DNA of 64,000 nt from Candidatus Woesearchaeota archaeon. Its GTDB lineage: Archaea > Nanobdellota > Nanobdellia > Woesearchaeales > JASKKU01. Where the stretch lies: positions 1,025-65,024 of the forward strand of contig JASKKU010000001.1 of assembly GCA_030154045.1 (NCBI GenBank). Reading direction: 5' to 3'. Numbering within the stretch: the first letter of the stretch is position 1; the number at the start of each line of letters is the position of its first letter. Shown one piece after another: positions 41,984 through 62,897 of the stretch. A model generated the notes under the pieces. That model was not told the origin of the DNA. It searched no databases and saw only the letters and a program-made list of their open reading frames with translations. A program made the position numbers and the translations under genes.

Positions 41984-41985
41984 TT

Positions 41986-42420: not shown

Positions 42421-42428
42421 GCAAACAC

Positions 42429-43931
42429 CTATTTTACAGGCTTAAGTTCATCATCACCAAAAATCTTAAGATATTCTCTATGCACGCCTTCACAAATATC
42501 AAAATACTTACATTCTCTACATTTTAAAGTTTTTGCTTTTAAATTATTCTTGCGAGTTGTGTTATACTCCTTATCCAATCCATCAGGATTGGCCATAAAT
42601 CTTTTTTCAGCCATATGTAATTCAACCACATGATTTTCATAACCCTGCATATAACACAAAGGAATTGCTTCAACATTTAACATATAATTATTCTCAATTG
42701 CTAAATCCAGAGCTTGATGAACATATGGAACAACATCTCTAATTCTTGGAATTAAAAGGTCAACATGTTTCAACGCATTACCTTCTGGACTAATAAACAT
42801 AAATTCAGAAAACATTCTCGGTAAATCTTTGTTTAAATTAATAAGGAACCTTACAATATCTGTAAGATGCTTATAATTAAGCTTGTTAATAACAGTAATT
42901 GTAGTATAAAGCACCTCAGGATACTTTTTCGCGTTTTCAAAAGCTTTCATTAATTGCTTGTAGTTGCCTTTAACGCTGGAAAGAGTATCTACAATCTTTT
43001 CATCAACATCGTCAAATGAAAAAGCTATATGATTCGCTCCGGATTCAACAAGTTTATCAAAAAAAGGTTGATAAGACAGCATGCGACCATTTGTAATAAC
43101 CTGCACTTCATAATAACCCATATCTCTAGCTGCCCTCGTTATGAAAAAGATATCCTTTCTTATCGTTGGCTCGCCACCTGTAAAGCTTACTTTCATTGCT
43201 CCAGCCTTCCTTCCGATAAACAAATCATTTAATATATCTTTTGTTGATTTTAATTTCTCTCCAAGATGACCTACGCAACAATACAAACAATTGTTGTTGC
43301 ATAAATAACCAGTTCTTATATCTATCCTAGGCATCTCTTTTCCAGAATTAGGAATCTTCTTCAAATCATAATACTTCTTATAATAAATGTAAAACCCTTT
43401 ACAAAATTTCTTTAGTTCACAACCATTGCATTTTTCTAAGTAAATGTGTTCTTTACCAGGATCATTATCAGAATCAAATTGTCCCTCCCTATTAATGAAC
43501 TTCTGATCAAATTCGTAGTTTCTCGCTTTTAAATCTGAGACATACTTAAAGAATTTCTTATCAATAAAACAGAGAGGAACCCCATCAACTCTAACCTCAA
43601 AACCCTTAGAATCACAAAACTCTAAAGTCTTATTCAAAACGTCTTGAAAAAGTTCAAGAGGAGTAGCTAACGGAACAACCTCATCAATATTTTGTGAGAA
43701 GCGAACAAGATTTGTTATCTGTAAATAAAAGTTATCAGATATTGAAAAAACTCTTCTAGCAACATCAAACAGTTCAGAATAATTCAAACTGTTCACAACA
43801 AAAACAACCCCGGTTTTAATTTTGGTCTTAGCGAGAGCCTCCAAAGCATCAAACTTCTTCTCTAACAATTCAACAGAGGATTTTGATAAAAACGAAAACA
43901 GGAACTTATCCCGGGTAGGAACATGAACCAA
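42429..43931 (-). CDS. two-module radical-SAM protein: N-terminal degenerate half-domain fused to a complete radical-SAM/twitch-like module
   Basis: Module 1 has PLCFID and CNGCELKKFCKG but no CxxxCxxC. Module 2 has CNNNCLYCC, GGEPT, IPLCYMQGY, CRECKYFDICEG and the tail LKIFGDDELKPVK. Confidence 0.8.
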   Translation of the reverse strand: MVHVPTRDKFLFSFLSKSSVELLEKKFDALEALAKTKIKTGVVFVVNSLNYSELFDVARRVFSISDNFYLQITNLVRFSQNIDEVVPLATPLELFQDVLNKTLEFCDSKGFEVRVDGVPLCFIDKKFFKYVSDLKARNYEFDQKFINREGQFDSDNDPGKEHIYLEKCNGCELKKFCKGFYIYYKKYYDLKKIPNSGKEMPRIDIRTGYLCNNNCLYCCVGHLGEKLKSTKDILNDLFIGRKAGAMKVSFTGGEPTIRKDIFFITRAARDMGYYEVQVITNGRMLSYQPFFDKLVESGANHIAFSFDDVDEKIVDTLSSVKGNYKQLMKAFENAKKYPEVLYTTITVINKLNYKHLTDIVRFLINLNKDLPRMFSEFMFISPEGNALKHVDLLIPRIRDVVPYVHQALDLAIENNYMLNVEAIPLCYMQGYENHVVELHMAEKRFMANPDGLDKEYNTTRKNNLKAKTLKCRECKYFDICEGVHREYLKIFGDDELKPVK

Positions 43932-44212
43932 AAGAGAGTCTAAGCCTGCAGATTCCAGTTTTTTCGCAACCTCTTCCGTAATTAAAGTGCCGTTTGTTTG
44001 AAGATGAACCTTAGCTTTTTTCTTGGCTTCTTTAATAACTTCAAAGATATCTGGCCTAAGCAGAGGTTCTCCCCCTGTAATTATAATCTGTTCAACTGAA
44101 TCGAAAGAATTTATTTTTTCAACTAAGTCTTCAAAAGAAGGTTCTCTTAACCCCCTCTTACGAGTACAATAAATACAATTTTGGTTGCAATCACTCGTTA
44201 CCTGTAATAAAC

Positions 44213-45232
44213 CTATTTTAATTCTCTCACCTCTGAATAAACTTCAAGATATTGTTTCCAAAAACCAGGGCATTTGTTCTTAAAAGGACAAACTTTGCAT
44301 TTTTTAACCCTTTCCCTAAACTGATTTAAGGTATAAAGCATATTCTTCTCAGGCTTTGAAAGATAGCATAAGGGAATGTTCTTTGTAAAAACCTTGTTCT
44401 GCTTATCAAACTCAAAACACTTATAAAAGTACTCCTTTAAATCTTCAAACTTTGGTGCAAGTATAGAATATCTTAATTGAGCATCACCGCCAGGCTCAAC
44501 ATAACTTAACTGAATCTCATCCACAAGATTATAAAAAAGTTTTACCATCTCAAAGATTTCTTCAAAATTCTGTTTTAAGATCACAAAGTTTATTTTAAGA
44601 ATTAAATCATCGTATTTTAAATCGTAGAGGTTCTTTAAACCTTGTACGGCTTGTTTAAAACTCCGAGGAGTTCGAGTAATTGCATCATGAGTTCTTTCAT
44701 TAGAACCAAGAATAGTAAAAGCGATCATCAAAGGCAACTTCAATTCAACAAGCCTTTTAGCAAACTCTTTGTAAGCAAACATACGACCGTTTGTTGGGAA
44801 GAAGATAGGAAAGTTGTACTTTTTAAGATGTTCAAGAATTTGAAAAATATCTCTACGCAAAGTAGGCTCTGCACCGTGTAAAACTATTAGTTTTTCTTTT
44901 CCAGTTAACAAAGAATCAAAGCTTGAAATAATCTCTTCAAAACTCGGGTCATCAACTTTGTTCCTAGATGATTCAAAACACATAATGCAATTATTATTGC
45001 ATTTTTTTGTTATAAAGAACTTCTTTATACCTGAAAGATTCAAATTAATTGCGCCAGGTTCACAAACATTAACGCACTTCATACAGCCTAAACAAATGTC
45101 TGCATCAGGAGCAAACACCTTGCCGTTTTCAAATTTAAACAGTTGTTGTGGGCAGACATCAATACATTTTAAACATGAATTACACTTTTTTTCGTCCACT
45201 TCAATCCGTGAAAGAGAATTTATTGCTTTCAT
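44213..45232 (-). CDS. 2x[4Fe-4S] ferredoxin domain fused to a radical-SAM/twitch-like enzyme
   Basis: N-terminal CNSCLKCIDVCP and CLGCMKCVNVCEP; radical-SAM CNNNCIMC, GAEPT, IPLCYLS, C-terminal CKVCPFKNKCPGFW. Confidence 0.8.
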   Translation of the reverse strand: MKAINSLSRIEVDEKKCNSCLKCIDVCPQQLFKFENGKVFAPDADICLGCMKCVNVCEPGAINLNLSGIKKFFITKKCNNNCIMCFESSRNKVDDPSFEEIISSFDSLLTGKEKLIVLHGAEPTLRRDIFQILEHLKKYNFPIFFPTNGRMFAYKEFAKRLVELKLPLMIAFTILGSNERTHDAITRTPRSFKQAVQGLKNLYDLKYDDLILKINFVILKQNFEEIFEMVKLFYNLVDEIQLSYVEPGGDAQLRYSILAPKFEDLKEYFYKCFEFDKQNKVFTKNIPLCYLSKPEKNMLYTLNQFRERVKKCKVCPFKNKCPGFWKQYLEVYSEVRELK

Positions 45233-46098
45233 TTTTTAACATCTTTAACAGGTTTAAAGTCTGAATAATTTTTGAATATCAAAAGATTTTGTTTATAGTA
45301 ACCATTACAATTCTGCTTTAAAACACAGGAATTGCATTCTGACAACGGGAAAACATACCTATCATCATGAATAAAGTCTTCTCCAATAACGTGCTTTCTA
45401 AATTCATCTTCAAAAATACACGGGGGTATATTAAAAACAAAAACACGATCATCAACTAAAGCATCTTCTATATGGGGTTTAATTTGTGAGAGAGAAACAT
45501 AAATCAGATCTTTATTATTAAGACTTCTATTCAAGTAGAGAGGATAATCTAAATAAACATTTTTCGTGGGAAAAAAATTCCTAAGAAACAATACTGTTTC
45601 CTTGAGTTGTTTATAATTTTGCTTAAGAATAACAATCATAAAATAAATATTCAAATCAGCTTCTTTTATAAATTCTAAAGCCTTAACAACTTGATAAAAA
45701 CTACCTTTAACCTTTGTGATTTCATCAAACGTTTCAGGATCTTTTGAATGAAAAGTTGTTCTGATTATATCAATATGTTCTTTGACTTTTTCAAAAAACG
45801 GCTTAACCGAAAGCATTCTGATATTTGACTGCAAACTAATTCGTGTATTCGGATAATTTCTTCGTAAAAATTTCAGGAAATCCAAGAAATAAGGCACTAT
45901 TGTTGGTTCTCCACCGGTTATTTGTATCTCCACAGCAGATTTTGGAATTTGTTTTAAAACCTCTTTTTTTACAAAGGAATATTCAAAAAAAGGTTCATAA
46001 TTTGTTTCAGTATGACAATAAACGCAATGATTATTGCATTTTGTTGTTAAGATAATTGCAAACTTGTTTCCAATAGACTTATGGATCTCAAAAGGCAT
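45229..46098 (-). CDS. radical-SAM/twitch-like enzyme (paralog)
   Basis: CNNHCVYC, GGEPT, IPPCIFED, C-terminal CNSCVLKQNCNGYY; 4-nt overlap with the downstream gene. Confidence 0.8.
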   Translation of the reverse strand: MPFEIHKSIGNKFAIILTTKCNNHCVYCHTETNYEPFFEYSFVKKEVLKQIPKSAVEIQITGGEPTIVPYFLDFLKFLRRNYPNTRISLQSNIRMLSVKPFFEKVKEHIDIIRTTFHSKDPETFDEITKVKGSFYQVVKALEFIKEADLNIYFMIVILKQNYKQLKETVLFLRNFFPTKNVYLDYPLYLNRSLNNKDLIYVSLSQIKPHIEDALVDDRVFVFNIPPCIFEDEFRKHVIGEDFIHDDRYVFPLSECNSCVLKQNCNGYYKQNLLIFKNYSDFKPVKDVKK

Positions 46099-46219
46099 GC
46101 TTTTAATAAAAGAAAGTTGTTTTTATATATCTTATTATTTTTGTGAAATCACTAATTTAACATCAAAGCATTAAAATAAAAAAAGCTTATAAAAACCTAA
46201 GTGTTATCTAATAGCTAGA

Positions 46220-46783
46220 GTGAACAAACTTTTATTTCAACTAATCTTGTATTTTATAATTTACTTATGTGGATCTTTTCCATCAGCTTATGTTGTAACA
46301 AAAATTTTTGCAAAAAAAGACATTCTAAAAATTGGTTCTGGTAATGTCGGGGCGCGAAATGTTTACGAGAATGTTAGTAAAAAATTAGGAATTATCACCT
46401 TTGCCTTAGACTTCAGCAAAGCAGTTGTAGCTTTTATTATATACTCAAAATACAATCTGTTTTTCACCTTGTCTCTATTAATGCTGGTCTTGGGACATAA
46501 TTTCTCGATCTATTTGAAATTTAAAGGAGGCAAAGGACTCGCGAGTACACTTACGTTCTTATTACTAAAAAATCCACTTCTCGCTATTTTTTCTATAATA
46601 ATCTATCTCATCACAAACAAAACTATCAAAAATATGGCTCTAAGCGTAATGTTGACAATTGCTCTATTATTAATTTTAACCAACATTTTTATTGAAAGAG
46701 ATATATTTATAAGCCTACTCCTTTGGATGGCTCTAACAATAAAATGGCTCCCGAACAAGAGGAACTTAGCAAACAAGAACTAA
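46220..46783 (+). CDS. plsY: PlsY-family acyl-phosphate:glycerol-3-phosphate acyltransferase
   Basis: YLCGSFPSA, GSGNVGARNV and LGHNFSIYLKFKGGKGLAS match the PlsY signatures YLxGSIxSA, GSGNPGATNV, LGHxxPxFxxFKGGKGVAT. Confidence 0.75.
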   Translation: MNKLLFQLILYFIIYLCGSFPSAYVVTKIFAKKDILKIGSGNVGARNVYENVSKKLGIITFALDFSKAVVAFIIYSKYNLFFTLSLLMLVLGHNFSIYLKFKGGKGLASTLTFLLLKNPLLAIFSIIIYLITNKTIKNMALSVMLTIALLLILTNIFIERDIFISLLLWMALTIKWLPNKRNLANKN

Positions 46784-47925
46784 TTAATAAGATCAAAGCA
46801 ATTATACCTGAATTCAAAGAGTATGTTAACTTAATAAATAGTATTAATGTATTTCCAATAGCTGACAAAGATACAGGCACGAACATTTATCTCACTCTCA
46901 AAAAATTTCTAGAATTAAATCGCTTTGAAGGTTTCGGAAATTCAGGCAATATTCTTGAGATCTTTGGGAACTCTCTCTTAAACAATCTTGGAGAAAAATT
47001 TACAATAAAACAGTTAACATCCGCAATTAAATCAGCTATATCTGAAGTTGAAAAATCTATTTTAAACCTTAAAGAGGGAACAATCTATACTGCTATGAAA
47101 AGACTATACGCTTCTTTAATTCAAAACAAAAACTTAAACGAAATAATCATAGGCTTATATCAACAAGTATTAGAAAGTAAAGAATATATGAAAGATTACA
47201 CTAACCAAGATGTTGTTGATTCTGGTGCTTTAGGATTTCTTATTTTTCTATGGTTGTTTAACAACAAAAAACCAGAGATAAACTTTAAAGATTTACAAAA
47301 ACCAATTGACAAAAAAGATTTCGAAGTTTATTGTATAAACATAACTTGTACTGATTATGAAGAAGAAAAGATAAAGACTCTTGATTCGGTAATTATTCAC
47401 AAGACACATAATGAGTATAAAATTCACTTTCATTCTCCCGATCTAAAATCAGCTCTTGAATTTAATAATCCAAAAATATTAAAAATAACTTTGCCAGAGA
47501 GTAATCAAAAAAAGACAAAAATATGTTATTTTTGTGAAAATGAAGAGGAAAAAGAGTTCTTTAGTAATTTGGGCTTAGAAACCGTAAGTTCAATTGAAGA
47601 AATAATTCTAAAAACAAACCCTTTACAAACCTTATATATAATCCCTGAAAGAAAAAAAGAGATTTTAGACTTGATCAATTTAGATGCAATAATTATTCAA
47701 AAAAGTGAAGAAGTATTAGCCTTATTAGAGGTTATCAGTTTAAAAACAGAATTTGACAAAGATGAGATAAATAACAAATTAAAAAAATATGCTTTAGTTG
47801 AAAATCCAAGTGAAGAACATGAAGTTATTTTCAAAATAAGTCGAAAAGTTAAAGAGGATTCTGTTTATTTCCCTTTCTTACATTGCAAAGAAAAGTTTTT
47901 GGTCAAAAAGAAAGATGTCTCATAG
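46723..47925 (+). CDS. DAK2-domain protein (fatty-acid kinase FakA-like / DhaL-like)
   Basis: INVFPIADKDTGTNIYLTL and FGNSGNILEIFGNS match the DAK2 signatures NVYPVPDGDTGTNM and RGNSGVILSQ; the start may be the second Met (MAPEQ, ~46744). Confidence 0.6.
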   Translation: MDGSNNKMAPEQEELSKQELINKIKAIIPEFKEYVNLINSINVFPIADKDTGTNIYLTLKKFLELNRFEGFGNSGNILEIFGNSLLNNLGEKFTIKQLTSAIKSAISEVEKSILNLKEGTIYTAMKRLYASLIQNKNLNEIIIGLYQQVLESKEYMKDYTNQDVVDSGALGFLIFLWLFNNKKPEINFKDLQKPIDKKDFEVYCINITCTDYEEEKIKTLDSVIIHKTHNEYKIHFHSPDLKSALEFNNPKILKITLPESNQKKTKICYFCENEEEKEFFSNLGLETVSSIEEIILKTNPLQTLYIIPERKKEILDLINLDAIIIQKSEEVLALLEVISLKTEFDKDEINNKLKKYALVENPSEEHEVIFKISRKVKEDSVYFPFLHCKEKFLVKKKDVS

Positions 47926-48988
47926 ATTTAAAAAATAAATAAAGAATAAAAAACAAGAAAGTAAAGATTAAAAAAGATTTTACATATTTAAGAATATAAG
48001 ACACCAGAGAAACATCTTCAAAAGCCTTAGAAAAAATATAAGCCTTAGAAAAATTTCCACCAGGATACTGAGAATATATCCTTTCGGCATATATATAGAA
48101 AAGTTGCCTTTTGGAAAACAGATCACTAAAAAAAATTTTAGAGATCTTTATTAAAGGCAAGATTCTGAAATCTTTAGAATAAATATAAAGCCAGCGAATA
48201 TTTAATTTAGCTTTTTCATAACAGTTATCTTTAAGTTGTTTGGGTACTTTAATCCCTAAAAGATTTTCTAAACGATAAATCTTAAAAGAGCAATCATAAA
48301 AATCATCATGAACCAAAAAGAATTCTAAATGTGAAGAAATATTTTTAAGAAGTGAATCTTTAAAGCTACAGTTAATCAAACTACAATAATAGGCAAAGTG
48401 TACATTTGAAACGAAATCAAAATTATGGGGTGTAGAAATATTCTTTTCAAAAACTTCAAAAAGACCGTATGTTTTATTTAAATTAAAAGAATCAATAAAA
48501 TTTGCATTAAAATTAAAGTCAGAAAAATTGTGTTTGAGATCCTGAAAAATAAAAGTATATGTTAAAGCTGTGTCATCTAAATCAGCGCCATATAATGAAT
48601 AAAGAGGAGTATAAGTGAAAGCAATTGGAATATTATCTTGCTTTAGATTGATTCTTAATTTTAAATAATTAAAAAGCGCTTCTTTAAAAGACTGAGGCAT
48701 AATGTTTTTAAATTCTCCGATAGAGCAGATTAAAGGAAAGAAAATATTCTCATCGAGATATTTATATGAATCCGTAAACTCTGATCTAGAAAGATAAGCA
48801 TTCTCAAGTTTTGAAATTGATAATGTTGATTGCTTTGAAGCATACGTTCTCAAAAAGAATCCATCAATAACCTCAGATTTAAACTCTTGATAAAAATAAA
48901 AAAACTGAACTAAGAAAAAAAGAGTGAGAACTAAAAAGAAAACGAACAAAAAACAAGAGCTCCTTTCTAATAACTTTAGTTTATTCAT
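47903..48988 (-). CDS. N-terminally anchored membrane protein of unknown function
   Basis: TM FLFVFFLVLTLFFLVQFFYF then an Asn/Phe/Tyr-rich domain. Confidence 0.3.
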   Translation of the reverse strand: MNKLKLLERSSCFLFVFFLVLTLFFLVQFFYFYQEFKSEVIDGFFLRTYASKQSTLSISKLENAYLSRSEFTDSYKYLDENIFFPLICSIGEFKNIMPQSFKEALFNYLKLRINLKQDNIPIAFTYTPLYSLYGADLDDTALTYTFIFQDLKHNFSDFNFNANFIDSFNLNKTYGLFEVFEKNISTPHNFDFVSNVHFAYYCSLINCSFKDSLLKNISSHLEFFLVHDDFYDCSFKIYRLENLLGIKVPKQLKDNCYEKAKLNIRWLYIYSKDFRILPLIKISKIFFSDLFSKRQLFYIYAERIYSQYPGGNFSKAYIFSKAFEDVSLVSYILKYVKSFLIFTFLFFILYLFFKSMRHLSF

Positions 48989-49844: not shown

Positions 49845-49881
49845 AATAAAAACAAAGTAATATTTAAAAAGTATTTAATCT

Positions 49882-51105
49882 TTGTGGTTTCCAATGAAAG
49901 TAAAGACTCTTACATTGTTAATAATCTCAGTATATAGTGTAGCACTACTGAGTCAAACTTTGGAACTGTTACCATTTACAATCTTTTTTCTTTCACTCAT
50001 TGCAATAAAAAGAAAAGCCAACCTCGATAAGCTTATAGTGTCTCTAACATTACCTCTAATATATTTCTTCCCATTCAATCTCTGGGTTGATATGAAATTA
50101 AGTTGGTATCTAATTCCTGTACTATTAAGCGCATTAATTTTAGTCCTATTCTTTAAAATTTCTGAGAAAATAATTTATATTTTTAAAAATTATAAGAAGG
50201 ATCCTCTGTTTCTATCAATAATCCTTTCCTTGACTTGGGTTGGCCTTTTATATTTAACTTATAAGATTTTAGGAACCGAACCAACTTGGATGTTTTTCTC
50301 ATATCGATGGTTTAAATCAAATTTAGCGCAGCTAAATATATACTCTTTTGAATCAATCGTCTTTTTCACAATATCCTATTTCTCAATTTCGTTAACCGAA
50401 AAAACAAATTCTGAAAAAAAGAGATGGGTACACATAAGTCTCTCTACTATCTTAATAATCATACTTTTACTCAGTTTTCTCAAACCAATAAAAATAGAGC
50501 ATCCGCAAAAAGCATTGTTGATAAACTTAAATCTAGATTTTTCTTATACACATAGAGTTGAAAACCAAAAAGAGATCTTGTATAAATATATCGAAGCAAT
50601 CAAAAATTCTACTTCAAAAGTTGATTTCATAATCTTACCAGAGTATGTAATCGTCACAGATTGGCGAAAAGAACCAAAAATCATTGAGTTATTCAAAAAC
50701 ACCTCTTCTGAATTAAACACACCCATTCTCGTAGGTTCAAAAGAAGATATAAACACAACGCATTTTTATAATGTGGCTGTGATCTTTGACAAGAATAAAA
50801 GTTATTCTGTAAGAGATGTATTCCCTATGAGTTTGTCTAAAAACACTGTTAAAGGTAACAGGCTTCCGACAATTGATTTAAAAAATAACTCTTATGCCAT
50901 TTTACTTTGTTTTTCAACAACACAGTCTAGATTTTGGAAAGAAATTAAAGAAAACCCTAAAATAGACGGAGTGTTGATTTTAGCAAATGAACAAGCATTA
51001 CATTGGTTCCTAAAAAAAGACGTATATTATCTAATCAGATATTTTGAAATATATTCTAAAAAGCCAATTTATAAAGCAGTAAACAACGGGATCACTTATC
51101 CATAA
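49882..51105 (+). CDS. polytopic membrane protein with a C-terminal CN-hydrolase-like domain (apolipoprotein N-acyltransferase Lnt-like?)
   Basis: About 6 TM helices, then IILPEY (Glu), KNKSYSVRDVFP (Lys), AILLCFS (Cys) in Lnt-like order. Confidence 0.35.
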   Translation: MWFPMKVKTLTLLIISVYSVALLSQTLELLPFTIFFLSLIAIKRKANLDKLIVSLTLPLIYFFPFNLWVDMKLSWYLIPVLLSALILVLFFKISEKIIYIFKNYKKDPLFLSIILSLTWVGLLYLTYKILGTEPTWMFFSYRWFKSNLAQLNIYSFESIVFFTISYFSISLTEKTNSEKKRWVHISLSTILIIILLLSFLKPIKIEHPQKALLINLNLDFSYTHRVENQKEILYKYIEAIKNSTSKVDFIILPEYVIVTDWRKEPKIIELFKNTSSELNTPILVGSKEDINTTHFYNVAVIFDKNKSYSVRDVFPMSLSKNTVKGNRLPTIDLKNNSYAILLCFSTTQSRFWKEIKENPKIDGVLILANEQALHWFLKKDVYYLIRYFEIYSKKPIYKAVNNGITYP

Positions 51106-51610
51106 AAAGTTCGTTAAAAATTCTTAAAAACTGTTCAAAATCAATTTGTGATTCCTTTTTAAAGTTACCTTTTTTGGCGTCATCAAAGAATTCTTTGTTA
51201 GAGATTATTTTTCTTAAATCTTGAGAAACTTTGAAACAAGTATTCCCATAAACCAAAATGTTAACACATTTCAAATCCTGAAGAATTTTTGTGTATGGGA
51301 ACGGATTACAAGTTAAACCCACAAACAAAGAGAAATTTTCTTTTTGTTCATTAATTGTTTTTTCTAGATGCTCATAAGAAGTTATCTGAAAAAATTTTAT
51401 TCTTTGTTCTTGCAAAAACCTTGTGATCTTTCCATAAACACAAGTCTTTCTTGTACACGTAGAGTCACAAAAATTCTTTTTCCTATACTTGCAATCCAAT
51501 GGCTTTAAACAGTAAGGCAGTAAGAAAACAATTTTCGGTCTCGACGTTTTTTTAACTTCTTGTAAAGAGCAATCCTTCAATTGAAAACCATCAAAAGGCA
51601 CCCATATCAT
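51092..51610 (-). CDS. small Cys-rich protein (8 Cys), unknown function
   Basis: Cys-rich segment LPYCLKPLDCKYRKKNFCDSTCTRKTCVYG. Confidence 0.3.
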   Translation of the reverse strand: MIWVPFDGFQLKDCSLQEVKKTSRPKIVFLLPYCLKPLDCKYRKKNFCDSTCTRKTCVYGKITRFLQEQRIKFFQITSYEHLEKTINEQKENFSLFVGLTCNPFPYTKILQDLKCVNILVYGNTCFKVSQDLRKIISNKEFFDDAKKGNFKKESQIDFEQFLRIFNELFMDK

Positions 51611-51613
51611 GTT

Positions 51614-52525
51614 TTATCTCCTATTTTGAATAACAGGCTCATGCTCTCCAAATCCATAAAACTGAACATAACTCTTTAACAAATGAGGACATTCATTATA
51701 ATAAATACATCTCTTGCATTCCGGTCCATTATCCATAAAAGCCCCACCAACACAACCCGACTTAACAACAAATTGTCTAAATCTTGGAGAAAAAAGAGCT
51801 TTTGGTAACAAATGAATTTGTATTTTTTCTGAAGAAAATCCTGCATTAATCAAGTTGGCTATTGCTTTTTCTATTTCAGGAGCAATCTCTAAATGAGAAA
51901 CTAACATTCTGTCTTTATTCTGCAAAGCCATCCCAATAACATCCATTCCTATAAAAGTAAACGAAGAAATTCTATACAAATTCTCTTTACGAATCATATC
52001 GCCATAAAACTTTAAAGTTTTATAGTTCATTTTGCTAACTACCGTTCTAATACCTACATCAAACCCCCTAGAGAGCAGATTTTTTAACCCAATCAAACTT
52101 TTATCCCAAGAGCCTTTAACTTGTGTAATTTGGTCATGGACAATTGAAAAAGGACTATAAAAACCAAATTCAATATGAAAATCAAATCCTCTTTCTTTCA
52201 AAAATAGAAACTTATCACAGAACGCTTGATAATAAAACATCATTCCATTTGAATTGATATGTATTCTTAAGTCTCTCTTCTTTTTTAAAACATGGAAAAG
52301 AATATCAAACAAAAAAGGACTGATTGTCGGCTCACCACCAATAAAAGAAACTATACGAATATCATCGCCCCAATTTTCATCAATAAACTTAAGAACCTCA
52401 TCTTTTGTAAGATTATAAGCCCTAAAATTATCATCGTTAGGGCAGTTTAAACACATCTGATTACATTTAGTTGTGGCATTAACCACTAATTCTCCAGGAT
52501 TCCTAAATCCATAAATTGAACCCAT
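51614..52525 (-). CDS. radical-SAM/twitch-like enzyme (paralog)
   Basis: CNQMCLNC, GGEPT, C-terminal CKRCIYYNECPH. Confidence 0.8.
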   Translation of the reverse strand: MGSIYGFRNPGELVVNATTKCNQMCLNCPNDDNFRAYNLTKDEVLKFIDENWGDDIRIVSFIGGEPTISPFLFDILFHVLKKKRDLRIHINSNGMMFYYQAFCDKFLFLKERGFDFHIEFGFYSPFSIVHDQITQVKGSWDKSLIGLKNLLSRGFDVGIRTVVSKMNYKTLKFYGDMIRKENLYRISSFTFIGMDVIGMALQNKDRMLVSHLEIAPEIEKAIANLINAGFSSEKIQIHLLPKALFSPRFRQFVVKSGCVGGAFMDNGPECKRCIYYNECPHLLKSYVQFYGFGEHEPVIQNRR

Positions 52526-52567
52526 GTTTTTAGATACCAGAAATTAACATAAAAATCTTTCCAAAAA

Positions 52568-54448
52568 TTACAACGGCTTAAGCTCATCAGTTCCATAAAG
52601 GTCAAAATACTCTTTTAAAACACCTTGACAAACATTGTTATACTTGCACATTTTACATTCTTCAGATTTATAACCAAACAAATCTCGTTCATTATTCCTC
52701 AATCTATCATCCATCCATTTGTCAAATCCACCTACAGATTTAATCTCATTAAACTCTACACTAAAAGTTCTAAATTCTTCAGGAACTTGACAAAGAGGAA
52801 AGTTCTCTAAGCCAATGGAAATGTTTTTAGTTTTGAGTTTATTCAGACCTTTAACAAGATAAGGCAATACTTTAGAATATTTTGGCGTGAGTTCTTGATT
52901 TAATTTTGTAGAGAATCTATTCGGTTTCACCATACTTACACTCAAACCAAGATGTATCCCTTTTTCTAAAGCTTCTGGATAAAATTCCTGCAACATAAAA
53001 TCAACAAAATCTGGAAAATATATGTAATTTCCTTTGTACAAAACATGAACAAGCATAACATCTATACTTAAAGCAATAGCATTATGTATGCCTTTAACAG
53101 TTTTATCAAAGTTTCCTTTGACTCTTGAAACTTTCTCAGAAATTTCGGTAGTATGTCCGTGCAACGAAATCATAAAACTATCTAACCCCGCTCGTTTCAA
53201 TCTTTCAACAAAAGCATAAGAACTTAAAAGAACACCATTTGTGTTTACAATAACTTGATTTGCATATCTCTTAGCAAGTTTAATAAGATAATCTAAATCC
53301 TTGTTTAAAGTTGGTTCACCACCCATAAAAACAATTTTATCAAACTCGTTCAGGATAATCTTCTTAACAATATCAATTAAAGGCAAAGACGAATCCAACG
53401 ATGGTTTTTCAAAAAAGGGTTTTTCTGCTGCAGGGTCCTGAGTGTCAATTCTAAGGAATTTATCATAAGTACAAAAAATACACCTTTGATTACACGAACC
53501 TGACGCGTTTATGATATTCAATCCTGACTTAAGTTGTTTATCTTTAAGAAAGAAAGGTACATAGTCCTGACTTTTAGATTTGATAGAATTAAACTCAAAA
53601 GTCCCGACAAAGTGAGTATAACTCCTCCAAGGTTTAGCGCATGAATCTTGTAGAGCACAATCCTTGCATGAATCCAAAAGGTCCAACCTTTTCTCAACAA
53701 CCGAAACTCCGCTTGCATATCTCCAATATTTCGATGGCAAAACACATTTAGGCATATGTAATAGAATAACCTCCAAATTCTTTTGTTTACAATATTCTAT
53801 CGCTTCAATAACGTATGGAATGAATTCCGCATAAGTAATCATAAGTTCTCTCCGATTCTTAGCAGCATTTCCAATAATATCTATAGGAAAAATAACAAAC
53901 CTATTGATTCCTAAACTTTCACCAATCTTGACTATATCCAAGATCTTTTCAAAATTTAATCTATGAATTACTAACCTTTGCTCAATAAACCAACCCAAAA
54001 TCTTTTTGATATTTTTAATACCTTCAATTGTCTGTTTAAAACTACCTTTAACCCCTGTAATCTTGTCGTGCAAGTCTTCACGTCCATGAATTTCTGTAAT
54101 TAAAAGAACTCTTTTTGGATCAATATCTTTAAAGGATTTGCAAAAATCAGAATAATAAAAAAGACGGGCATTGGTAACAAGCTTGATTTCTGCTTTTGAG
54201 TTATCCTGAATAAATCGCATAACTTCGTGTAATTGTTTTGGATAAAGTGTAGGTTCACCGCCCGTAATCACAAAAAAAGAAGCGTTTGGGTCTTTAGCCA
54301 ACGTACTTTTTATTTTGTTTATCTGTTCACGTAATGGCTGAGACTTCTGTTTTGAAGGCATCACATTGGTACACATAATGCAATTGTTATTACATACTTG
54401 ACCAAAATAAACTTCATAATCCAACATATTCATTTTGAATTCCACCAA
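52568..54448 (-). CDS. tandem double radical-SAM protein (two complete modules)
   Basis: Module 1 CNNNCIMC...GGEPT...CKDCALQDSCAKPW; module 2 CNQRCIFC...GGEPT...FPLCQV...CKMCKYNNVCQG and tail YGTDELKPL. Confidence 0.8.
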   Translation of the reverse strand: MVEFKMNMLDYEVYFGQVCNNNCIMCTNVMPSKQKSQPLREQINKIKSTLAKDPNASFFVITGGEPTLYPKQLHEVMRFIQDNSKAEIKLVTNARLFYYSDFCKSFKDIDPKRVLLITEIHGREDLHDKITGVKGSFKQTIEGIKNIKKILGWFIEQRLVIHRLNFEKILDIVKIGESLGINRFVIFPIDIIGNAAKNRRELMITYAEFIPYVIEAIEYCKQKNLEVILLHMPKCVLPSKYWRYASGVSVVEKRLDLLDSCKDCALQDSCAKPWRSYTHFVGTFEFNSIKSKSQDYVPFFLKDKQLKSGLNIINASGSCNQRCIFCTYDKFLRIDTQDPAAEKPFFEKPSLDSSLPLIDIVKKIILNEFDKIVFMGGEPTLNKDLDYLIKLAKRYANQVIVNTNGVLLSSYAFVERLKRAGLDSFMISLHGHTTEISEKVSRVKGNFDKTVKGIHNAIALSIDVMLVHVLYKGNYIYFPDFVDFMLQEFYPEALEKGIHLGLSVSMVKPNRFSTKLNQELTPKYSKVLPYLVKGLNKLKTKNISIGLENFPLCQVPEEFRTFSVEFNEIKSVGGFDKWMDDRLRNNERDLFGYKSEECKMCKYNNVCQGVLKEYFDLYGTDELKPL

Positions 54449-55368
54449 AAAACTTTATTCCTTTTTTTAGGTTCTTCAAATATTGGATAGAGTTCTTCTA
54501 ACCCAAACATCTCAGCATACTCTTTCCAAACACCAGGACAAACATTATTAAGAACACACAACTCGCAATCTTTTGATTTTTTCTTCAGTTCGGAAAACTG
54601 TTTTTTGAGAAGGTTATATTTGCCTGTTTGAGAATTGATATATTCTTGCTGATGATATCTTTCAGTATTTAACCGAATATACTCTGAAGAATATTCCTTA
54701 AATTCAAGCATATAACATAAAGGCACACCTTCAACCTCATAGATAATGTCCTCTTGTTTATCCAGAAAAGTTAAAACTTTATACAAATGGTATTGAACTT
54801 TATAAAGTCGTGGAACCAATTCAGGATGTTGTTGTGTTCTACCGTTTGGCCTGATAAATCCAAAATAAAATTTCACCTTACCAACATTTGATAGAATAAA
54901 TTTTACGAAATTAAGCAAATCTTTATAATTCAACTCGTTGATAACATGAGAAATTGCAACAAAAAGTCTTGCATCAACTAATCGTTTAAGATTTTTGATA
55001 ATAGTATCAAAATTATCAACGCCTGAGAGATATTTATGAACTTCTCGTTTGTGAGAATGCAATGAAGCCATAATCTGTGTAACATTCGTTGAAATCAAAG
55101 TTTCAAAGATCTCATCAGTTATGTTTGAAACATTTGTTTGTAGTTCAATATTCTTTCCTAAAGAATGAGCGAATTTAACTAATTCAATAAAATCTTTTCT
55201 TATCGTTGGTTCGCCACCTGTAAATACAACTGTGTGTGCATCTGTTTCTCTGATGATTTTTTTAACATGTTCAGTTGAGAGCGTTGCCTCGTTAGTGCCA
55301 TAAACAGTACAAAATTTGCACAGGTGGTTGCATTCGTGTCCTAAGCGAATATTCAACACTGAAGTCAT
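54430..55368 (-). CDS. radical-SAM/twitch-like enzyme (paralog)
   Basis: CNHLCKFC, GGEPT, VPLCYML, CELCVLNNVCPGVW, tail FGLEELYP. Confidence 0.8.
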   Translation of the reverse strand: MTSVLNIRLGHECNHLCKFCTVYGTNEATLSTEHVKKIIRETDAHTVVFTGGEPTIRKDFIELVKFAHSLGKNIELQTNVSNITDEIFETLISTNVTQIMASLHSHKREVHKYLSGVDNFDTIIKNLKRLVDARLFVAISHVINELNYKDLLNFVKFILSNVGKVKFYFGFIRPNGRTQQHPELVPRLYKVQYHLYKVLTFLDKQEDIIYEVEGVPLCYMLEFKEYSSEYIRLNTERYHQQEYINSQTGKYNLLKKQFSELKKKSKDCELCVLNNVCPGVWKEYAEMFGLEELYPIFEEPKKRNKVFWWNSK

Positions 55369-55392
55369 TTATGATGTAGATAAAATATATCT

Positions 55393-57045
55393 TTAAATGT
55401 TTTTTTGAAAATTTGGCGATTTGGTTAATTTAATCGCACCGTAAGGACAAACTTCGTGACAAGTATAGCAATGAATACACTTATCCTCAATAACTTTTAA
55501 TCGCTTGCCAATTTCGTCAAAAACAATAGCGCCAACAGGACATGAATTAAAACAAGTTTTACAAAGAGTACATTTGTGTTGGTCGATTGAAACTTTATAT
55601 ATATAGGCCTTCCCAAACTCTGCTTCATTTTTAATAGGATTCAGAAGATTAAATAGAGAATGTTTTTTAAAATTGGGATGAATAATCTCAACTACATCTT
55701 TGAAATCGCCAACAATTTGTATATTATCAGTATAACCTTCGCCCAGATACTTCTCTGTTGCAAACTTTACAGTAGGTAAATGCTCAGGCTCATAACCCAT
55801 AACCTTACTAACAACAGTATCAACAGCAACCCCGTCTTTTCCAAAGAATAACAATCCAACATTTACTGGGTCGCCATAAGAAGGTCCTTCGTCTCCTTCC
55901 ATTCCAATAATGCCATCAACAACATGCAAAGCAAACTTATCTTTTAGTCTTGAATAAACATCTACAACACCTTTAGCAAAATTAAATCTATCAACAAAAG
56001 AATGAATATATTTTCTTTCGTCTGGATGAATTAAACCAAAACAGGATTTTACACAACAGGTGAAAAAAGTAAGTCCGTGTGTTTTCATCTTAGGAACATT
56101 AATGATTAAATCAACCTTGTCCAAAAAAGAAAGAAAATCTGTTTTCTCAACTAAATAATAGTTTGGAATCCTCTTAACAGTATAACCATCTTTGCTCATA
56201 TCAACAATCTTAACATTTTCACTCAAAGCAACATCCTTCATTCCTGTAACTGTCATAAGTCTATCAAACGCCTGATAATTTGTACCTGCTGCCAAATCTG
56301 AGATGTAAATTTCATTTGTAACTTGCTTTAAAACTCTAACAATTGCTTTGATAACAACAGGGTGTGTTGTTGCAACTTTTTCCGGTGGCAAAGGCTCAGC
56401 AAGGTTTGGTTTTATCAATACCTTTGAACCTTTTGGAACTAATTTTTCAACACCGCCAAAAGAATCAAACCCTTTCTTCACTGCTTTAAGAATTGATTCA
56501 AAATCATTATAATCCTTAAATTTTCCAAAGACAGCAACTTTTTCTTTTAGACCAAATCCTCTCTTAGCCTTGATCAAAATCTCGTCTTTCGGTTTAAAAA
56601 TAGGATACACCTGATTCTCAAATCTTAAATCTGCACCTGGACAGAAAGATCTTACTGCACAGCTATCGCATGCAAGGAACTTTTTCTTAATAATTCTTTC
56701 AGGATTTTTTAGTTTGATTAACCCTTCTTCAAACAACAACTTAAGTTTAAGATCATAACTCAACCACGGAAAATCTTGAAGATAACATAAAGGTACATCC
56801 TTTACTTGAAGAACAACATCATTTTTCTTAGCCCACCTAATTAACCTGTTCAATTTAAGCTCGTTTGTATAAATTTCTCCAGAACATGAAACCAAAACAA
56901 ACTTCTTTTGCAAAGTTTTAATCTTAGAAGTGATTTCCTCAAAAGTTTCCTTACATATGTCAACCTCAATAAAATCTTGATTAGGGAGCGCTTCAACACT
57001 GCTATTTGTTTGTAAATTCCCTGATTCAAAGACAAACAGTTTCAT
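55393..57045 (-). CDS. fusion protein: degenerate radical-SAM C-terminal half-domain + DUF362 + 2x[4Fe-4S] ferredoxin
   Basis: N-terminus VPLCYLQDF...CDSCAVRSFCPG; middle HGLTFFTCCVKSCFGLIHPDERKY (DUF362-like); C-terminus CTLCKTCFNSCP and CIHCYTCHEVCP. Confidence 0.6.
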   Translation of the reverse strand: MKLFVFESGNLQTNSSVEALPNQDFIEVDICKETFEEITSKIKTLQKKFVLVSCSGEIYTNELKLNRLIRWAKKNDVVLQVKDVPLCYLQDFPWLSYDLKLKLLFEEGLIKLKNPERIIKKKFLACDSCAVRSFCPGADLRFENQVYPIFKPKDEILIKAKRGFGLKEKVAVFGKFKDYNDFESILKAVKKGFDSFGGVEKLVPKGSKVLIKPNLAEPLPPEKVATTHPVVIKAIVRVLKQVTNEIYISDLAAGTNYQAFDRLMTVTGMKDVALSENVKIVDMSKDGYTVKRIPNYYLVEKTDFLSFLDKVDLIINVPKMKTHGLTFFTCCVKSCFGLIHPDERKYIHSFVDRFNFAKGVVDVYSRLKDKFALHVVDGIIGMEGDEGPSYGDPVNVGLLFFGKDGVAVDTVVSKVMGYEPEHLPTVKFATEKYLGEGYTDNIQIVGDFKDVVEIIHPNFKKHSLFNLLNPIKNEAEFGKAYIYKVSIDQHKCTLCKTCFNSCPVGAIVFDEIGKRLKVIEDKCIHCYTCHEVCPYGAIKLTKSPNFQKNI

Positions 57046-61615: not shown

Positions 61616-61637
61616 CAATTCAAACAAACACAACTAA

Positions 61638-61901: not shown

Positions 61902-62014
61902 ACTTTTTAAATTATTAAACTAAAAATAGAAACAAATTCTAGGACATATTTAAAACCAGAGATTTATAGAATGAACTGAAAATAGAAAAATGGTGCAAAA
62001 TAAGATAAACAAAT

Positions 62015-62875: not shown

Positions 62876-62897
62876 GCCTAGAATAATAAAAAATGAG

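What the first reader, a model, noticed from the sequence alone, without database searches (positions are those of the whole stretch)
42429..57045. Modular evolution of the radical-SAM family: a standalone Cys half-domain, a tandem double enzyme, and ferredoxin/DUF362 fusions
The C-terminal half of every paralog (PLC(Y/F)...CxxCx5CxG) also occurs without a radical-SAM core in two places. One is the N-terminus of ORF 42429..43931, fused ahead of a complete enzyme. The other is the N-terminus of ORF 55393..57045, fused to DUF362 plus a 2x[4Fe-4S] ferredoxin. ORF 52568..54448 carries two complete enzymes in one polypeptide. ORF 44213..45232 has a ferredoxin domain fused N-terminally. The four-Cys arrangement (PLC plus CxxCx5C) looks like an auxiliary [4Fe-4S] site. 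The ferredoxin/DUF362 fusions suggest a dedicated electron-delivery chain for the cluster.
Basis: seen in the sequence. Interest (0 to 1): 0.7.

Follow-up and report, generated by a model that had tools for sequence, protein, structure and literature searches.

The report
Expanded archaeal His-Xaa-Ser maturase cluster
This part of a DPANN archaeon's genome is an unusually large version of the known His-Xaa-Ser (HXS) protein-maturation system, with nine HxsC-type radical-SAM modules.

Summary
The ORFs and motifs are real, but the finding needs one correction and a name.

**Name.** The locus is a His-Xaa-Ser (HXS) system in a Candidatus Woesearchaeota MAG. It holds HxsD, an HxsD-like gene, HxsB (above the curated cutoff), nine HxsC-like radical-SAM modules in seven genes, and two His-x-Ser/Thr repeat proteins (HxsA).

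**Correction.** The "half-domain" at the N-terminus of ORF 42429..43931 comes from the choice of start codon. The frame is open to 44243 and encodes a complete first module (CNQNCIYC, GGEPLL). That stretch is under purifying selection, and the ortholog is a 592-aa double enzyme. This gene is therefore a second tandem double enzyme, probably starting at ATT 44222.

**The real half-domain.** The half-domain in ORF 55393..57045 is genuine:
- 30.6 bits against a profile of the C-terminal halves, versus at most 10.8 in 2000 shuffles.
- All four Cys are conserved in orthologs.
- The AlphaFold model has pLDDT 95.
- The half-only copies form one clade in 193 of 200 bootstraps.
- Every copy examined lies in an Hxs locus.

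**Cys pattern.** Klebsiella HxsC has the same four Cys (C317, C342, C345, C351). Published C342A/C345A mutants lose antiphage defence.

**Still inferred.** DUF362-ferredoxin is repeatedly fused to HxsC-like enzymes in related archaea. This supports a functional link; electron delivery is an inference. I rate it a new variant of a known kind.

The parts
60951..61496 (-). HxsD-like protein
   Evidence: TIGR03976 HxsD scores 48.0 bits against a cutoff of 50. Pfam PF27806 HxsD is on record for the identical gene in L001.
60700..60954 (-). Small HxsD-related protein
   Evidence: NF038315 HxsD_rel scores 32.3 bits against a cutoff of 41. A small gene occupies the same position in L002, L003, L005 and L007.
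59139..60671 (-). HxsB, the radical-SAM/SPASM maturase
   Evidence: TIGR03978 scores 414.9 bits, above the cutoff of 370. Pfam finds Radical_SAM plus SPASM.
58173..59138 (-). Module H: the core HxsC-like radical-SAM enzyme, directly downstream of HxsB
   Evidence: Best NCBIfam hit is HxsC4 at 158.5 bits, with HxsC at 101 bits; both are below their cutoffs. Motifs are CNNNCYFC, PFC225 and CKTCRFRFVC. The AlphaFold model has pLDDT 97.2. An H-type gene lies next to HxsB in L002, L003, L005, L009 and L012.
57076..58125 (-). Conserved membrane protein with no family assignment
   Evidence: No Pfam or NCBIfam hit. Hydrophobic segments lie at aa 9-65 and 175-209. A gene of 348-376 aa sits at the same position in L002, L003 and L005.
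55393..57045 (-). Gene G: HxsC-type C-terminal half-domain, then DUF362, then a 2x[4Fe-4S] ferredoxin. It has no radical-SAM cluster motif.
   Evidence: Pfam and motif results. Full-length orthologs P0002-P0005 are 39-69% identical.
56566..57045 (-). Half-domain of G (aa 1-160), with PLC85-87 and C126xxC129x5C135
   Evidence: HMM score is 30.6 bits against at most 10.8 in 2000 shuffles. P85, C126, C129 and C135 are invariant, and C87 is present in at least 90% of sequences, across orthologs and modules. The AlphaFold model has pLDDT 95.3.
55810..56421 (-). DUF362 domain of G (aa 209-412)
   Evidence: PF04015 at E 1e-43.
55423..55596 (-). Dicluster ferredoxin domain of G (aa 484-541)
   Evidence: Fer4 family hits. 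Two CxxCxxCxxxCP motifs are visible in the translation.
54430..55368 (-). Module F: HxsC-like radical-SAM enzyme
   Evidence: F corresponds to the radical-SAM part of the DUF362-ferredoxin-radical-SAM fusion proteins P0008-P0014.
52568..54448 (-). Gene E: tandem double enzyme (modules E1 and E2)
   Evidence: Two Radical_SAM stretches and two full motif sets. The L002 ortholog is also 626 aa and double.
51614..52525 (-). Module D: HxsC-like enzyme that lacks the PLC cysteine
   Evidence: HxsC scores 121.7 bits against a cutoff of 267.9. It has LPKAL in place of PLC and an alternative SGC Cys, and the L002 ortholog shows the same.
51092..51610 (-). DUF116 Cys-rich protein; whether it belongs to the system is uncertain
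   Evidence: PF01976 at 5.7e-08. It is adjacent to D here and in L001 but absent from the L002 cluster.
45229..46098 (-). Module C: HxsC-like enzyme
   Evidence: HxsC scores 115.1 bits. Motifs are CNNHCVYC, PPC and CNSCVLKQNC.
44213..45232 (-). Gene B: dicluster ferredoxin (aa 10-62) fused to an HxsC-like module
   Evidence: The L002 ortholog has the same 339-aa architecture.
42429..44222 (-). Gene A: a second tandem double enzyme (modules A1 and A2). The proposed start is ATT 44222, and the frame is open to 44243.
   Evidence: Translation. Two module hits. The L002 ortholog is a 592-aa double enzyme. Over the first 104 codons, 38 differences are synonymous and 23 change the amino acid. A GGTGA motif lies 4 nt upstream of the ATT in both genomes.
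41986..42420 (-). HxsA-like precursor 2, with 28 H-x-S/T motifs in the open frame (41989-42441)
   Evidence: HxsA3 scores 51.8 bits and HxsA4 41.3 bits, both below cutoff. Motif count. One hydrophobic helix at aa 24-48.
41354..41983 (-). HxsA-like precursor 1, with 36 H-x-S/T motifs in the open frame (41357-42073) and a Cys-rich C-terminal tail
   Evidence: NF038313 HxsA4 scores 73.3 bits, above the cutoff of 55. Motif count. Hydrophobic helix at aa 29-47.

Best explanation
The region is an archaeal (Woesearchaeota, DPANN) variant of the His-Xaa-Ser (HXS) maturation system.

**Shown**
- HxsD, an HxsD-like gene, HxsB, nine HxsC-like radical-SAM modules (H, F, E1, E2, D, C, B, A1, A2) and two membrane-anchored His-x-Ser/Thr repeat proteins (HxsA) are all present on one strand.
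- Each module has the SAM-cluster motif CxxxCxxC. Each also has the HxsC-type C-terminal Cys set: one upstream Cys plus CxxCx5C.
- Two genes (E and A) are head-to-tail fusions of two complete modules.
- B carries an N-terminal dicluster ferredoxin.
- G keeps only the last beta-alpha units and the Cys site of an HxsC-like module, fused to DUF362 and a dicluster ferredoxin.
- This half-domain has a single evolutionary origin inside the radiation of full modules. It is retained, with its Cys, in every ortholog found.

**Inferred**
- HxsB and the HxsC-like modules modify the long H-x-S/T repeat tracts of the two HxsA proteins by radical chemistry. The paralogs would divide the work by repeat context or by reaction step.
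- The C-terminal four-Cys site binds an auxiliary [4Fe-4S] cluster, as proposed for bacterial HxsC.
- The ferredoxin domains of B and G feed low-potential electrons to the radical-SAM clusters.
- G's half-domain acts as an Fe-S relay or docking surface that imitates the face of an HxsC module.
- Gene A is translated from ATT 44222, coupled to termination of gene B.
For: **Family assignment**
- HxsB passes its curated cutoff, and every paralog's best family is HxsC or HxsC4.
- HxsA4 passes its cutoff. HxsD scores 48 against a cutoff of 50.
- An archaeal SRP RNA lies in the window. NCBI names the source Candidatus Woesearchaeota.

**Cys site**
- Klebsiella HxsC aligns with PLC (C317) and CDECTQKSSC (C342/C345/C351).
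- The C342A/C345A mutant reduces HxsA cleavage and abolishes defence (PMC13128918).

**Gene A is a double enzyme**
-.

**G's half-domain is real**
- HMM match against shuffles; invariant P85, C126, C129 and C135.
- pLDDT 95.3, with a secondary-structure order that parallels residues 156-271 of module H.
- Six half-only domains are monophyletic in 193 of 200 bootstraps.

**Link to Hxs loci**
- G-like or P0242-like genes sit in Hxs loci in L001-L005 and L009.
- DUF362-ferredoxin is fused directly to F-type or H-type modules in P0008-P0015. Of these, P0008 lies in the radical-SAM-rich locus L006, which holds an HxsA-like ORF (no HxsD gene was called there). P0015 lies in the Hxs locus L007.
- HxsA-like ORFs with the same leader occur in L002, L006 and L007.
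Against: - No HxsC-like module reaches the curated HxsC or HxsC4 cutoff.
- Nothing here shows cluster binding, electron transfer or any modification of HxsA.
- DUF362 belongs to the LarA-like clan and has no known redox function.
- G's half-domain evolves faster than the rest of G: 43-61% amino-acid identity against 74-76% versus L002.
- Fold searches of the isolated half-domain found no significant match.
- L003 and L005 contain G but no His-rich ORF within the fetched 21 kb.
- An H-like gene in L011 has no Hxs neighbours.
- The ATT start rests only on motif spacing and on conservation in two genomes.
Confidence: 0.6

Rival explanations
1. G's half-domain is a functionless relic. It would have been left at the junction of a duplication or deletion, for example from tandem DUF362-ferredoxin-radical-SAM fusion genes, and simply tolerated at the N-terminus of a working DUF362-ferredoxin protein.
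For: - The domain evolves about twice as fast as the DUF362-ferredoxin part.
- Fusion proteins in the order DUF362-ferredoxin-radical-SAM exist, which makes such a junction easy to imagine.
- The family is rare: six hits at E up to 0.001 among 1.84 billion representatives, four of which carry the half-domain.
Against: - All four Cys and P85 are kept in orthologs down to 24% identity in this domain, and also in P0242 and P0243, which lack DUF362 altogether.
- The half-only domains form a single old clade (193 of 200 bootstraps).
- The predicted fold is confident, at pLDDT 95.
Confidence: 0.15
2. DUF362-ferredoxin is a catalytic tailoring enzyme related to LarA, acting on HxsA or on a cofactor, rather than an electron supplier. 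In this reading the half-domain is a substrate-binding or partner-docking module.
For: - DUF362 shares Pfam clan CL0471 with the LarA N-terminal domain (PMC11770544).
- Hundreds of standalone DUF362-ferredoxin proteins (369-430 aa among the 120 listed) occur in source-named Methanobacterium, Omnitrophota, Firestonebacteria and Cloacimonetes, so the unit has a role of its own.
- P0242 and P0243 carry the half-domain with no ferredoxin at all.
Against: - Fusion of a dicluster ferredoxin directly to radical-SAM modules (gene B, P0008-P0015) is most simply read as electron supply.
- No catalytic residues or cofactor could be identified here.
Confidence: 0.25
3. Most of the extra paralogs do not act on HxsA. 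They would be a gene family expansion serving other substrates, such as lipids, cofactors or glycans, that happens to sit beside the Hxs core.
For: - H-like proteins are very common in DPANN archaea: 1320 hits at E up to 1e-10, and 53-71% identity for all but the closest of the 120 listed.
- One sampled locus, L011, has no HxsB or HxsD nearby.
- The minimal loci L003 and L005 work with H alone.
- In the window, a 5-kb block of unrelated genes splits the cluster.
Against: - In L002 all paralogs form one uninterrupted same-strand array that ends in HxsA.
- L006, L007 and L012 also combine many HxsC-like modules: L006 with an HxsA-like ORF, L007 with HxsD and an HxsA-like ORF, L012 with HxsD.
- The HxsA proteins here have 28-36 repeats, against five in E. 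coli, which fits a need for more enzymes.
Confidence: 0.15
4. Gene A has lost its start codon and is decaying, or is expressed only from the internal TTG at 43931. That would yield the truncated product (half-domain plus one enzyme) that the first reader described.
For: - No ATG, GTG or TTG lies in frame between 44243 and 43931.
- The TTG that the gene caller used in L002 is TTA in the window.
Against: - The 104 upstream codons have no stop or frameshift, and show 38 synonymous against 23 amino-acid-changing differences versus L002, similar to the rest of the gene.
- A GGTGA motif sits 4 nt before a conserved ATT in both genomes. Gene H has the same spacing before its ATG.
- The L002 TTG would leave only 5 residues before the first Cys and would remove strand beta-1.
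Confidence: 0.1

Closest known systems
Bacterial HXS antiphage system (HxsD-HxsB-HxsC-HxsA; TIGR03976-03979; Li et al., Nat Commun 2026, PMC13128918)
   Same: - Both have HxsB (radical SAM/SPASM), an HxsC-type radical-SAM enzyme with the same four-Cys C-terminal site, HxsD, and a His-x-Ser repeat protein.
- Both follow the gene order D-B-C...A.
   Different: - This system is archaeal; the published survey covered bacteria only, and 99.7% of systems were in Pseudomonadota.
- It has nine HxsC-like modules instead of one, including two tandem doubles.
- The modules lack the roughly 80-90-aa N-terminal extension of bacterial HxsC.
- It has extra conserved genes: a membrane protein and G.
- HxsA has 28-36 H-x-S/T repeats, a hydrophobic anchor and no peptidoglycan-binding domain.
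- No module reaches the HxsC cutoff.
NCBIfam rare Hxs variants (HxsC4 NF038332, HxsA4 NF038313, HxsA3 NF038309, HxsD_rel NF038315)
   Same: - These are the best-scoring models for H, F, A, the HxsA-like proteins and the small HxsD-like protein.
- HxsA4 passes its cutoff for 41354-41983.
   Different: - HxsC4 scores are 82-158 bits for single modules (H, F, B; 156 bits for the extended double enzyme A) against a cutoff of 500.
- HxsA3 and HxsD_rel are below their cutoffs.
- These models do not describe G or the paralog expansion.
SPASM and twitch-domain radical-SAM enzymes (anSME, SuiB, PqqE; BtrN, SkfB, MoaA)
   Same: - Both have a C-terminal extension after the partial TIM barrel that carries a CxxCx5C motif and probably an auxiliary [4Fe-4S] cluster.
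- SkfB, SuiB, PqqE, MoaA and BtrN are among the nearest solved relatives of the core.
   Different: - The modules have only four Cys, with the fourth ligand candidate upstream (PLC).
- Pfam SPASM does not hit the modules.
- hhalign against the window's own HxsB gives probability 1.5%.
- Structural matches cover only the core, at 207-260 columns.
Radical-SAM activases with built-in ferredoxin domains (glycyl-radical enzyme activases, TIGR02494 and YjjW types)
   Same: A dicluster ferredoxin lies in the same polypeptide as a radical-SAM core, as in gene B and P0008-P0015. B hits the YjjW activase model over aa 45-221.
   Different: - In those activases the ferredoxin-like insert lies after the CxxxCxxC motif (from my own knowledge).
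- Here a separate N-terminal ferredoxin, or a DUF362-ferredoxin unit, precedes the whole core.
- The substrates are peptides or proteins, not glycyl-radical enzymes.
DUF362 (PF04015), in the LarA-like clan CL0471
   Same: G aa 209-412 is a clear DUF362 domain (E 1e-43) followed by the usual dicluster ferredoxin.
   Different: The N-terminal HxsC-type half-domain (G, P0002-P0005), or a C-terminal full HxsC-like module (P0008-P0015), is added to the common DUF362-ferredoxin protein of about 375 aa.

Membership tests
HXS (His-Xaa-Ser) system | HxsB radical-SAM/SPASM maturase (TIGR03978) | tested here: met
   414.9 bits against a cutoff of 370 for 59139-60671.
HXS (His-Xaa-Ser) system | HxsC radical-SAM maturase reaching the curated TIGR03977 score | tested here: not met
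   The best single module is D at 121.7 bits, and the double enzyme E totals 229.6, against a cutoff of 267.9. HxsC or HxsC4 is still the top family for every module.
HXS (His-Xaa-Ser) system | HxsC Cys pattern: CxxxCxxC plus an upstream Cys plus CxxCx5C | tested here: met
   The alignment with Klebsiella HxsC (C101/105/108; C317; C342/345/351) matches 8 of 9 modules in full. Module D lacks only the upstream Cys.
HXS (His-Xaa-Ser) system | His-Xaa-Ser repeat protein (HxsA) encoded in the locus | tested here: met
   HxsA4 scores 73.3 bits against a cutoff of 55 for 41354-41983. The two open frames hold 36 and 28 H-x-S/T motifs.
HXS (His-Xaa-Ser) system | HxsD (TIGR03976) | tested here: inconclusive
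   48.0 bits against a cutoff of 50. Pfam PF27806 HxsD is recorded for the identical gene in L001, but Pfam-A here returned no hit at E up to 0.01.
HXS (His-Xaa-Ser) system | Antiphage or antiviral activity through matured HxsA | not testable with these tools
   Shown only for E. coli (PMC13128918). PADLOC 2023 has no Hxs model.
Radical SAM superfamily | CxxxCxxC cluster motif and a PF04055 core | tested here: met
   Met for all nine modules. Gene G has neither feature and is not a radical-SAM enzyme.
SPASM domain (PF13186) | Seven-Cys motif CX9-15GX4C...CX2CX5CX3C...C binding two auxiliary clusters | tested here: not met
   No SPASM hit for any HxsC-like module; only HxsB hits. The modules have four Cys in this region.
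Twitch domain (one auxiliary cluster) | A shortened SPASM-like beta-hairpin and helix binding a single [4Fe-4S] cluster | tested here: inconclusive
   N_Twi_rSAM scores 28-45 bits against a cutoff of 170. The fold search matches only the core of SkfB, BtrN and MoaA.
DUF362 (PF04015) | Pfam gathering score | tested here: met
   150.2 bits against a cutoff of 24 for G aa 209-412.
2x[4Fe-4S] ferredoxin | Two CxxCxxCxxxC(P) motifs and Fer4 family hits above cutoff | tested here: met
   Met for G aa 484-541 and for B aa 10-62.

The most novel reading that the evidence does not exclude
DPANN archaea carry a distinct, so far undescribed class of HXS-type systems. In it, a standalone Fe-S 'half radical-SAM' domain, alone or fused to DUF362-ferredoxin, is a dedicated accessory. 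It would wire low-potential electrons into, or scaffold, a battery of HxsC-like enzymes that heavily modify long His-x-Ser/Thr repeat envelope proteins. If so, DUF362-ferredoxin would be the physiological partner that was missing when in-vitro reconstitution of HxsB/HxsC failed. The system might be an archaeal envelope-level antiviral barrier.
Probability: 0.3. Interest if true: 0.65.

Novelty: new variant of a known kind. Interest (0 to 1): 0.5.

Why it matters
**Taxonomic reach.** The HXS system was shown only in 2026 to be an antiphage defence in E. coli. Its chemistry (a +8 Da change) is unsolved, and in-vitro reconstitution failed; the authors suggest missing host factors. The archaeal loci described here extend the system beyond bacteria.

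**Candidate partner.** Natural gene fusions (DUF362-ferredoxin with an HxsC-like module; ferredoxin with an HxsC-like module) nominate a partner protein that could be tried in reconstitution.

**A set to dissect.** The nine paralogs and the two 28-36-repeat substrates offer material for working out what HxsC-type enzymes do.

**Protein evolution.** The locus documents a radical-SAM enzyme reduced to its auxiliary Cys domain and reused as a separate module. It also documents two independent head-to-tail double enzymes.

**Practical lesson.** One of the two "half-domains" came from restricting starts to ATG, GTG and TTG. The gene probably uses ATT.

Tried and rejected
1. **Programmed -1 frameshift joining gene B to gene A.** The A frame is -1 relative to B, and the two overlap by 19-30 nt. 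Reading the overlap in either genome shows no X XXY YYZ slippery site. I rejected this in favour of an ATT start with an SD-like GGTGA motif.
2. **Showing that the C-terminal Cys domain is SPASM or twitch.**
   - Pfam SPASM gave no hit on the modules.
   - The PDB profile search matched only core positions, up to about 220.
   - hhalign of the half-domain profile against HxsB gave probability 1.5%.
   - The question stays unresolved.
3. **Fold searches of the isolated G half-domain.**
   - Foldseek against PDB gave nothing at E up to 0.001.
   - The afdb50 library was unavailable.
4. **PADLOC.** It returned only generic viperin-like radical-SAM similarity and has no Hxs models.
5. **Solved structure for DUF362 by sequence.** None was found; only the ferredoxin part matched.
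6. **L009 1-462 as a possible third half-only gene.** It falls inside the H clade and abuts the contig end, so it is an H-type enzyme cut off by the assembly.
7. **P0241 and P0244.** These are 4369-aa and 1870-aa proteins with 10 short matched stretches each. I treated them as compositional or repeat matches and did not follow them up.

Full report
**What is in the sequence.** All ORFs named in the finding exist on the minus strand.
- 59139-60671 is HxsB (TIGR03978, 414.9 bits against a cutoff of 370).
- Every other radical-SAM paralog has HxsC (TIGR03977) or HxsC4 (NF038332) as its best family, always below the curated cutoffs.
- 60951-61496 is HxsD-like (48 bits against 50), and 60700-60954 is HxsD-related.
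- Just outside the stated range, 41354-41983 and 41986-42420 are His-x-Ser/Thr repeat proteins. HxsA4 scores 73.3 bits against a cutoff of 55 for the first. Their open frames hold 36 and 28 H-x-S/T motifs, and each has an N-terminal leader and one hydrophobic helix.
- The window is archaeal: an SRP RNA lies at 61634-61903. An identical protein is recorded in NCBI as coming from a Candidatus Woesearchaeota MAG.

The finding therefore concerns a His-Xaa-Ser (HXS) system. That family was defined in silico by Haft and Basu in 2011 (from my own knowledge). In 2026 it was shown in E. coli to be an antiphage system in which HxsB, HxsC and HxsD mature HxsA (PMC13128918).

**The family and its Cys pattern.** I cut the paralogs into nine modules: H, F, E1, E2, D, C, B, A1 and A2.
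- All nine have CxxxCxxC, and CxxCx5C is invariant.
- The upstream 'PLC' Cys is present in eight. Module D has LPKAL there and a Cys 15 residues downstream, and its ortholog shows the same arrangement.
- A Klebsiella plasmid HxsC shows the same arrangement: CNNLCLFC at 101-108, PLC at C317, and CDECTQKSSC at 342-351.
- The numbering matches the E. coli protein in the paper. [quoted passage not shown]

It is a family trait, not something peculiar to this locus. Cluster binding itself has not been shown here.

**The first 'half-domain' comes from the start-codon call.**
- Upstream of the TTG at 43931 the frame stays open to 44243. It encodes IKIGLLQVTSDCNQNCIYC...ITGGEPLL, the missing N-terminal half of a radical-SAM core.
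- With this extension the protein gives two hits to radical-SAM families and two half-domain hits, each preceded by CxxxCxxC.
- In the closest related contig (L002) the ortholog is called as a 592-aa double enzyme.
- Over the 104 'extra' codons the two genomes differ by 38 synonymous and 23 amino-acid-changing codons. That ratio is similar to the rest of the gene.
- No ATG, GTG or TTG lies in frame in the window. The TTG used in L002 is TTA here, and it would in any case leave only five residues before the first Cys.
- Both genomes have GGTGA four nucleotides before a conserved ATT (44222). Gene H has the same motif and spacing before its ATG, and most genes in the cluster have GGTG(A) 4-8 nt upstream of their starts.

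I infer an AUU start coupled to termination of gene B, whose stop codon is at 44215-44213. A -1 frameshift fusion of B and A was considered and rejected, because the overlap holds no slippery heptamer. Gene A is thus a second tandem double enzyme.

**The second half-domain is real.**
- ORF 55393-57045 (gene G) begins at the first start codon after an in-frame stop. It lies 30 nt from the upstream membrane-protein gene, so no hidden N-terminal half can exist.
- G has no CxxxCxxC motif.
- Its aa 64-137 match an HMM of the nine C-terminal halves at 30.6 bits, against at most 10.8 in 2000 shuffles.
- Full-length orthologs exist (P0002-P0005, 39-69% identical). P85, C126, C129 and C135 are invariant, and C87 is nearly so, across orthologs and modules.
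- AlphaFold2 gives pLDDT 95.3 for aa 1-165. The helix and strand order parallels residues 156-271 of the module H model, which has pLDDT 97.2.
- An exhaustive phmmer search of 1.84 billion representatives found six hits at E up to 0.001. Two are G-like (P0002, P0005). Two are proteins of 349 and 360 aa (P0242, P0243) with the same domain at the N-terminus, followed by about 190 residues with no family assignment. The other two look compositional.
- P0242 also lies beside an HxsD-HxsB-HxsC-like cluster (L009).
- In a neighbour-joining tree of 48 C-terminal domains rooted on Klebsiella HxsC, the six half-only domains form one clade in 193 of 200 bootstraps. The clade sits inside the radiation of full modules. 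Its sister group, F-type or A1-type, is unresolved.

The half-domain therefore derives from a full enzyme, once, and has been kept. It does evolve faster than the rest of G: 43-61% amino-acid identity against 74-76% versus L002.

**Context in relatives.**
- L002 has the same genes in one uninterrupted array: HxsD, small gene, HxsB, H, membrane protein, G, F, double, D, C, ferredoxin-B, double A, HxsA. The window's 5-kb block at 46220-51105 and the DUF116 gene are therefore lineage-specific interruptions.
- L003/L004 and L005 have a minimal set of HxsD, small gene, HxsB, H, membrane protein and G, with one extra 163-aa gene before G in L005. G and the membrane protein belong to the conserved core, while F through A are an expansion.
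- In other DPANN contigs, DUF362-ferredoxin is fused in front of a full F-type module (P0008-P0014) or H-type module (P0015). P0008 lies in L006, a locus with many radical-SAM genes and an HxsA-like ORF. P0015 lies in L007, an Hxs locus with HxsD and an HxsA-like ORF.
- L012 is a further Hxs locus with many modules, including one radical-SAM-like gene without CxxxCxxC.
- H-like proteins are very common in DPANN archaea. One sampled locus, L011, has no Hxs neighbours, so not every family member need be part of such a system.

**How it probably works.** Shown: the anatomy above. Inferred:
- HxsB and the HxsC-like modules modify the long H-x-S/T tracts of the two HxsA proteins, with the paralogs dividing the work.
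- The four-Cys site holds an auxiliary cluster.
- The ferredoxin domains of B and G supply electrons.
- G's half-domain acts as a relay or docking face.

The recurrent fusions are good evidence for a functional link between DUF362-ferredoxin and HxsC-type enzymes. They do not show what DUF362 does. It belongs to the LarA-like clan CL0471, has no solved relative by sequence, and occurs widely as a standalone DUF362-ferredoxin protein of about 375 aa. A catalytic role is a serious rival.

**Comparison with known systems.**
- As a system, this has HxsB, the HxsC Cys pattern, HxsA repeats and the D-B-C...A gene order. It fails the curated HxsC and HxsC4 scores and is borderline for HxsD.
- The published survey of HXS covered bacteria only. 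It found 99.7% of systems in Pseudomonadota, and four-gene systems in more than 99.8% of cases.
- My literature searches found no description of an archaeal version, of the half-domain protein, or of the DUF362 link.
- Structurally, the nearest solved enzymes to module H are BlsE, GDGT-MAS, viperins, SuiB, SkfB and MoaA, and the matches cover only the core.
- SPASM membership is not met, and twitch membership could not be decided.

**Verdict.** This is a new variant of a known kind: an expanded archaeal HXS-type locus with two double enzymes, one ferredoxin fusion, and a conserved accessory that combines a half-domain, DUF362 and a ferredoxin. Interest is moderate, at 0.5. The family and its second cluster are already known. 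The archaeal architecture and the fusion-based pointer to a partner protein are new and testable.

Noticed in passing
window 44207-44246 (minus strand): Gene A has no canonical start codon. An SD-like GGTGA sits 4 nt before a conserved ATT (44222), which overlaps the end of gene B. L002 has the same ATT, and the TTG that the gene caller picked there is TTA in the window. This is probably an AUU start with translational coupling.
   Followed up: partly
window 41354-41480 (minus strand): After the repeats, HxsA-like protein 1 ends in a Cys-rich tail (CLSENGACVESVSICRGYGGTSVGAKDCSNPSYPICCVN, 7 Cys). HxsA-like protein 2 lacks it. Bacterial HxsA instead has a peptidoglycan-binding domain.
   Followed up: no
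window 46220-51610: A block of unrelated genes on both strands, including a DegV-family gene (Pfam record for the identical gene in L001), splits the radical-SAM array, together with a DUF116 Cys-rich gene. The array is uninterrupted in the closest relative, L002.
   Followed up: partly
window 57076-58125 (minus strand): A 349-aa membrane protein with no family assignment is conserved between the H-type enzyme and G in L002, L003 and L005. It is a candidate exporter or anchor for HxsA.
   Followed up: partly
L012 11392-12210: This gene is called Radical_SAM by Pfam and has the HxsC-type C-terminal domain but no CxxxCxxC motif. It may be a 'pseudo-SAM' stage between a full enzyme and the half-domain.
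   Followed up: no
L007 5826-8177; L006 8431-9987: Two further fusions occur in related loci: a B12-binding radical-SAM enzyme joined to an HxsC-like module (783 aa), and an HxsC-like module joined to a SAM-dependent methyltransferase (518 aa).
   Followed up: no
window 61634-61903 (+): An archaeal SRP RNA (Rfam RF01857, 137.7 bits) lies just upstream of the Hxs locus. A tRNA-Asn is at 62897-62970.
   Followed up: yes
window 36800-39648 (minus strand): An Mre11-like phosphoesterase and a HerA-type ATPase (PADLOC HerA models, E 1e-27) sit side by side. This may be the archaeal DNA-repair pair or a defence-type HerA module.
   Followed up: no
window 41404-41814, 41991-42275 (minus strand, other frame): Long ORFs in an alternative frame of the same strand, overlapping the HxsA genes, are by-products of the repeat sequence and not separate genes.
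   Followed up: no
L011 8001-8930: An H-like radical-SAM gene (54% identical) in an Aenigmatarchaeota genome sits beside a glycosyltransferase and a B12 radical-SAM enzyme. No HxsB or HxsD lies within 8 kb, so the H family is broader than Hxs loci.
   Followed up: partly
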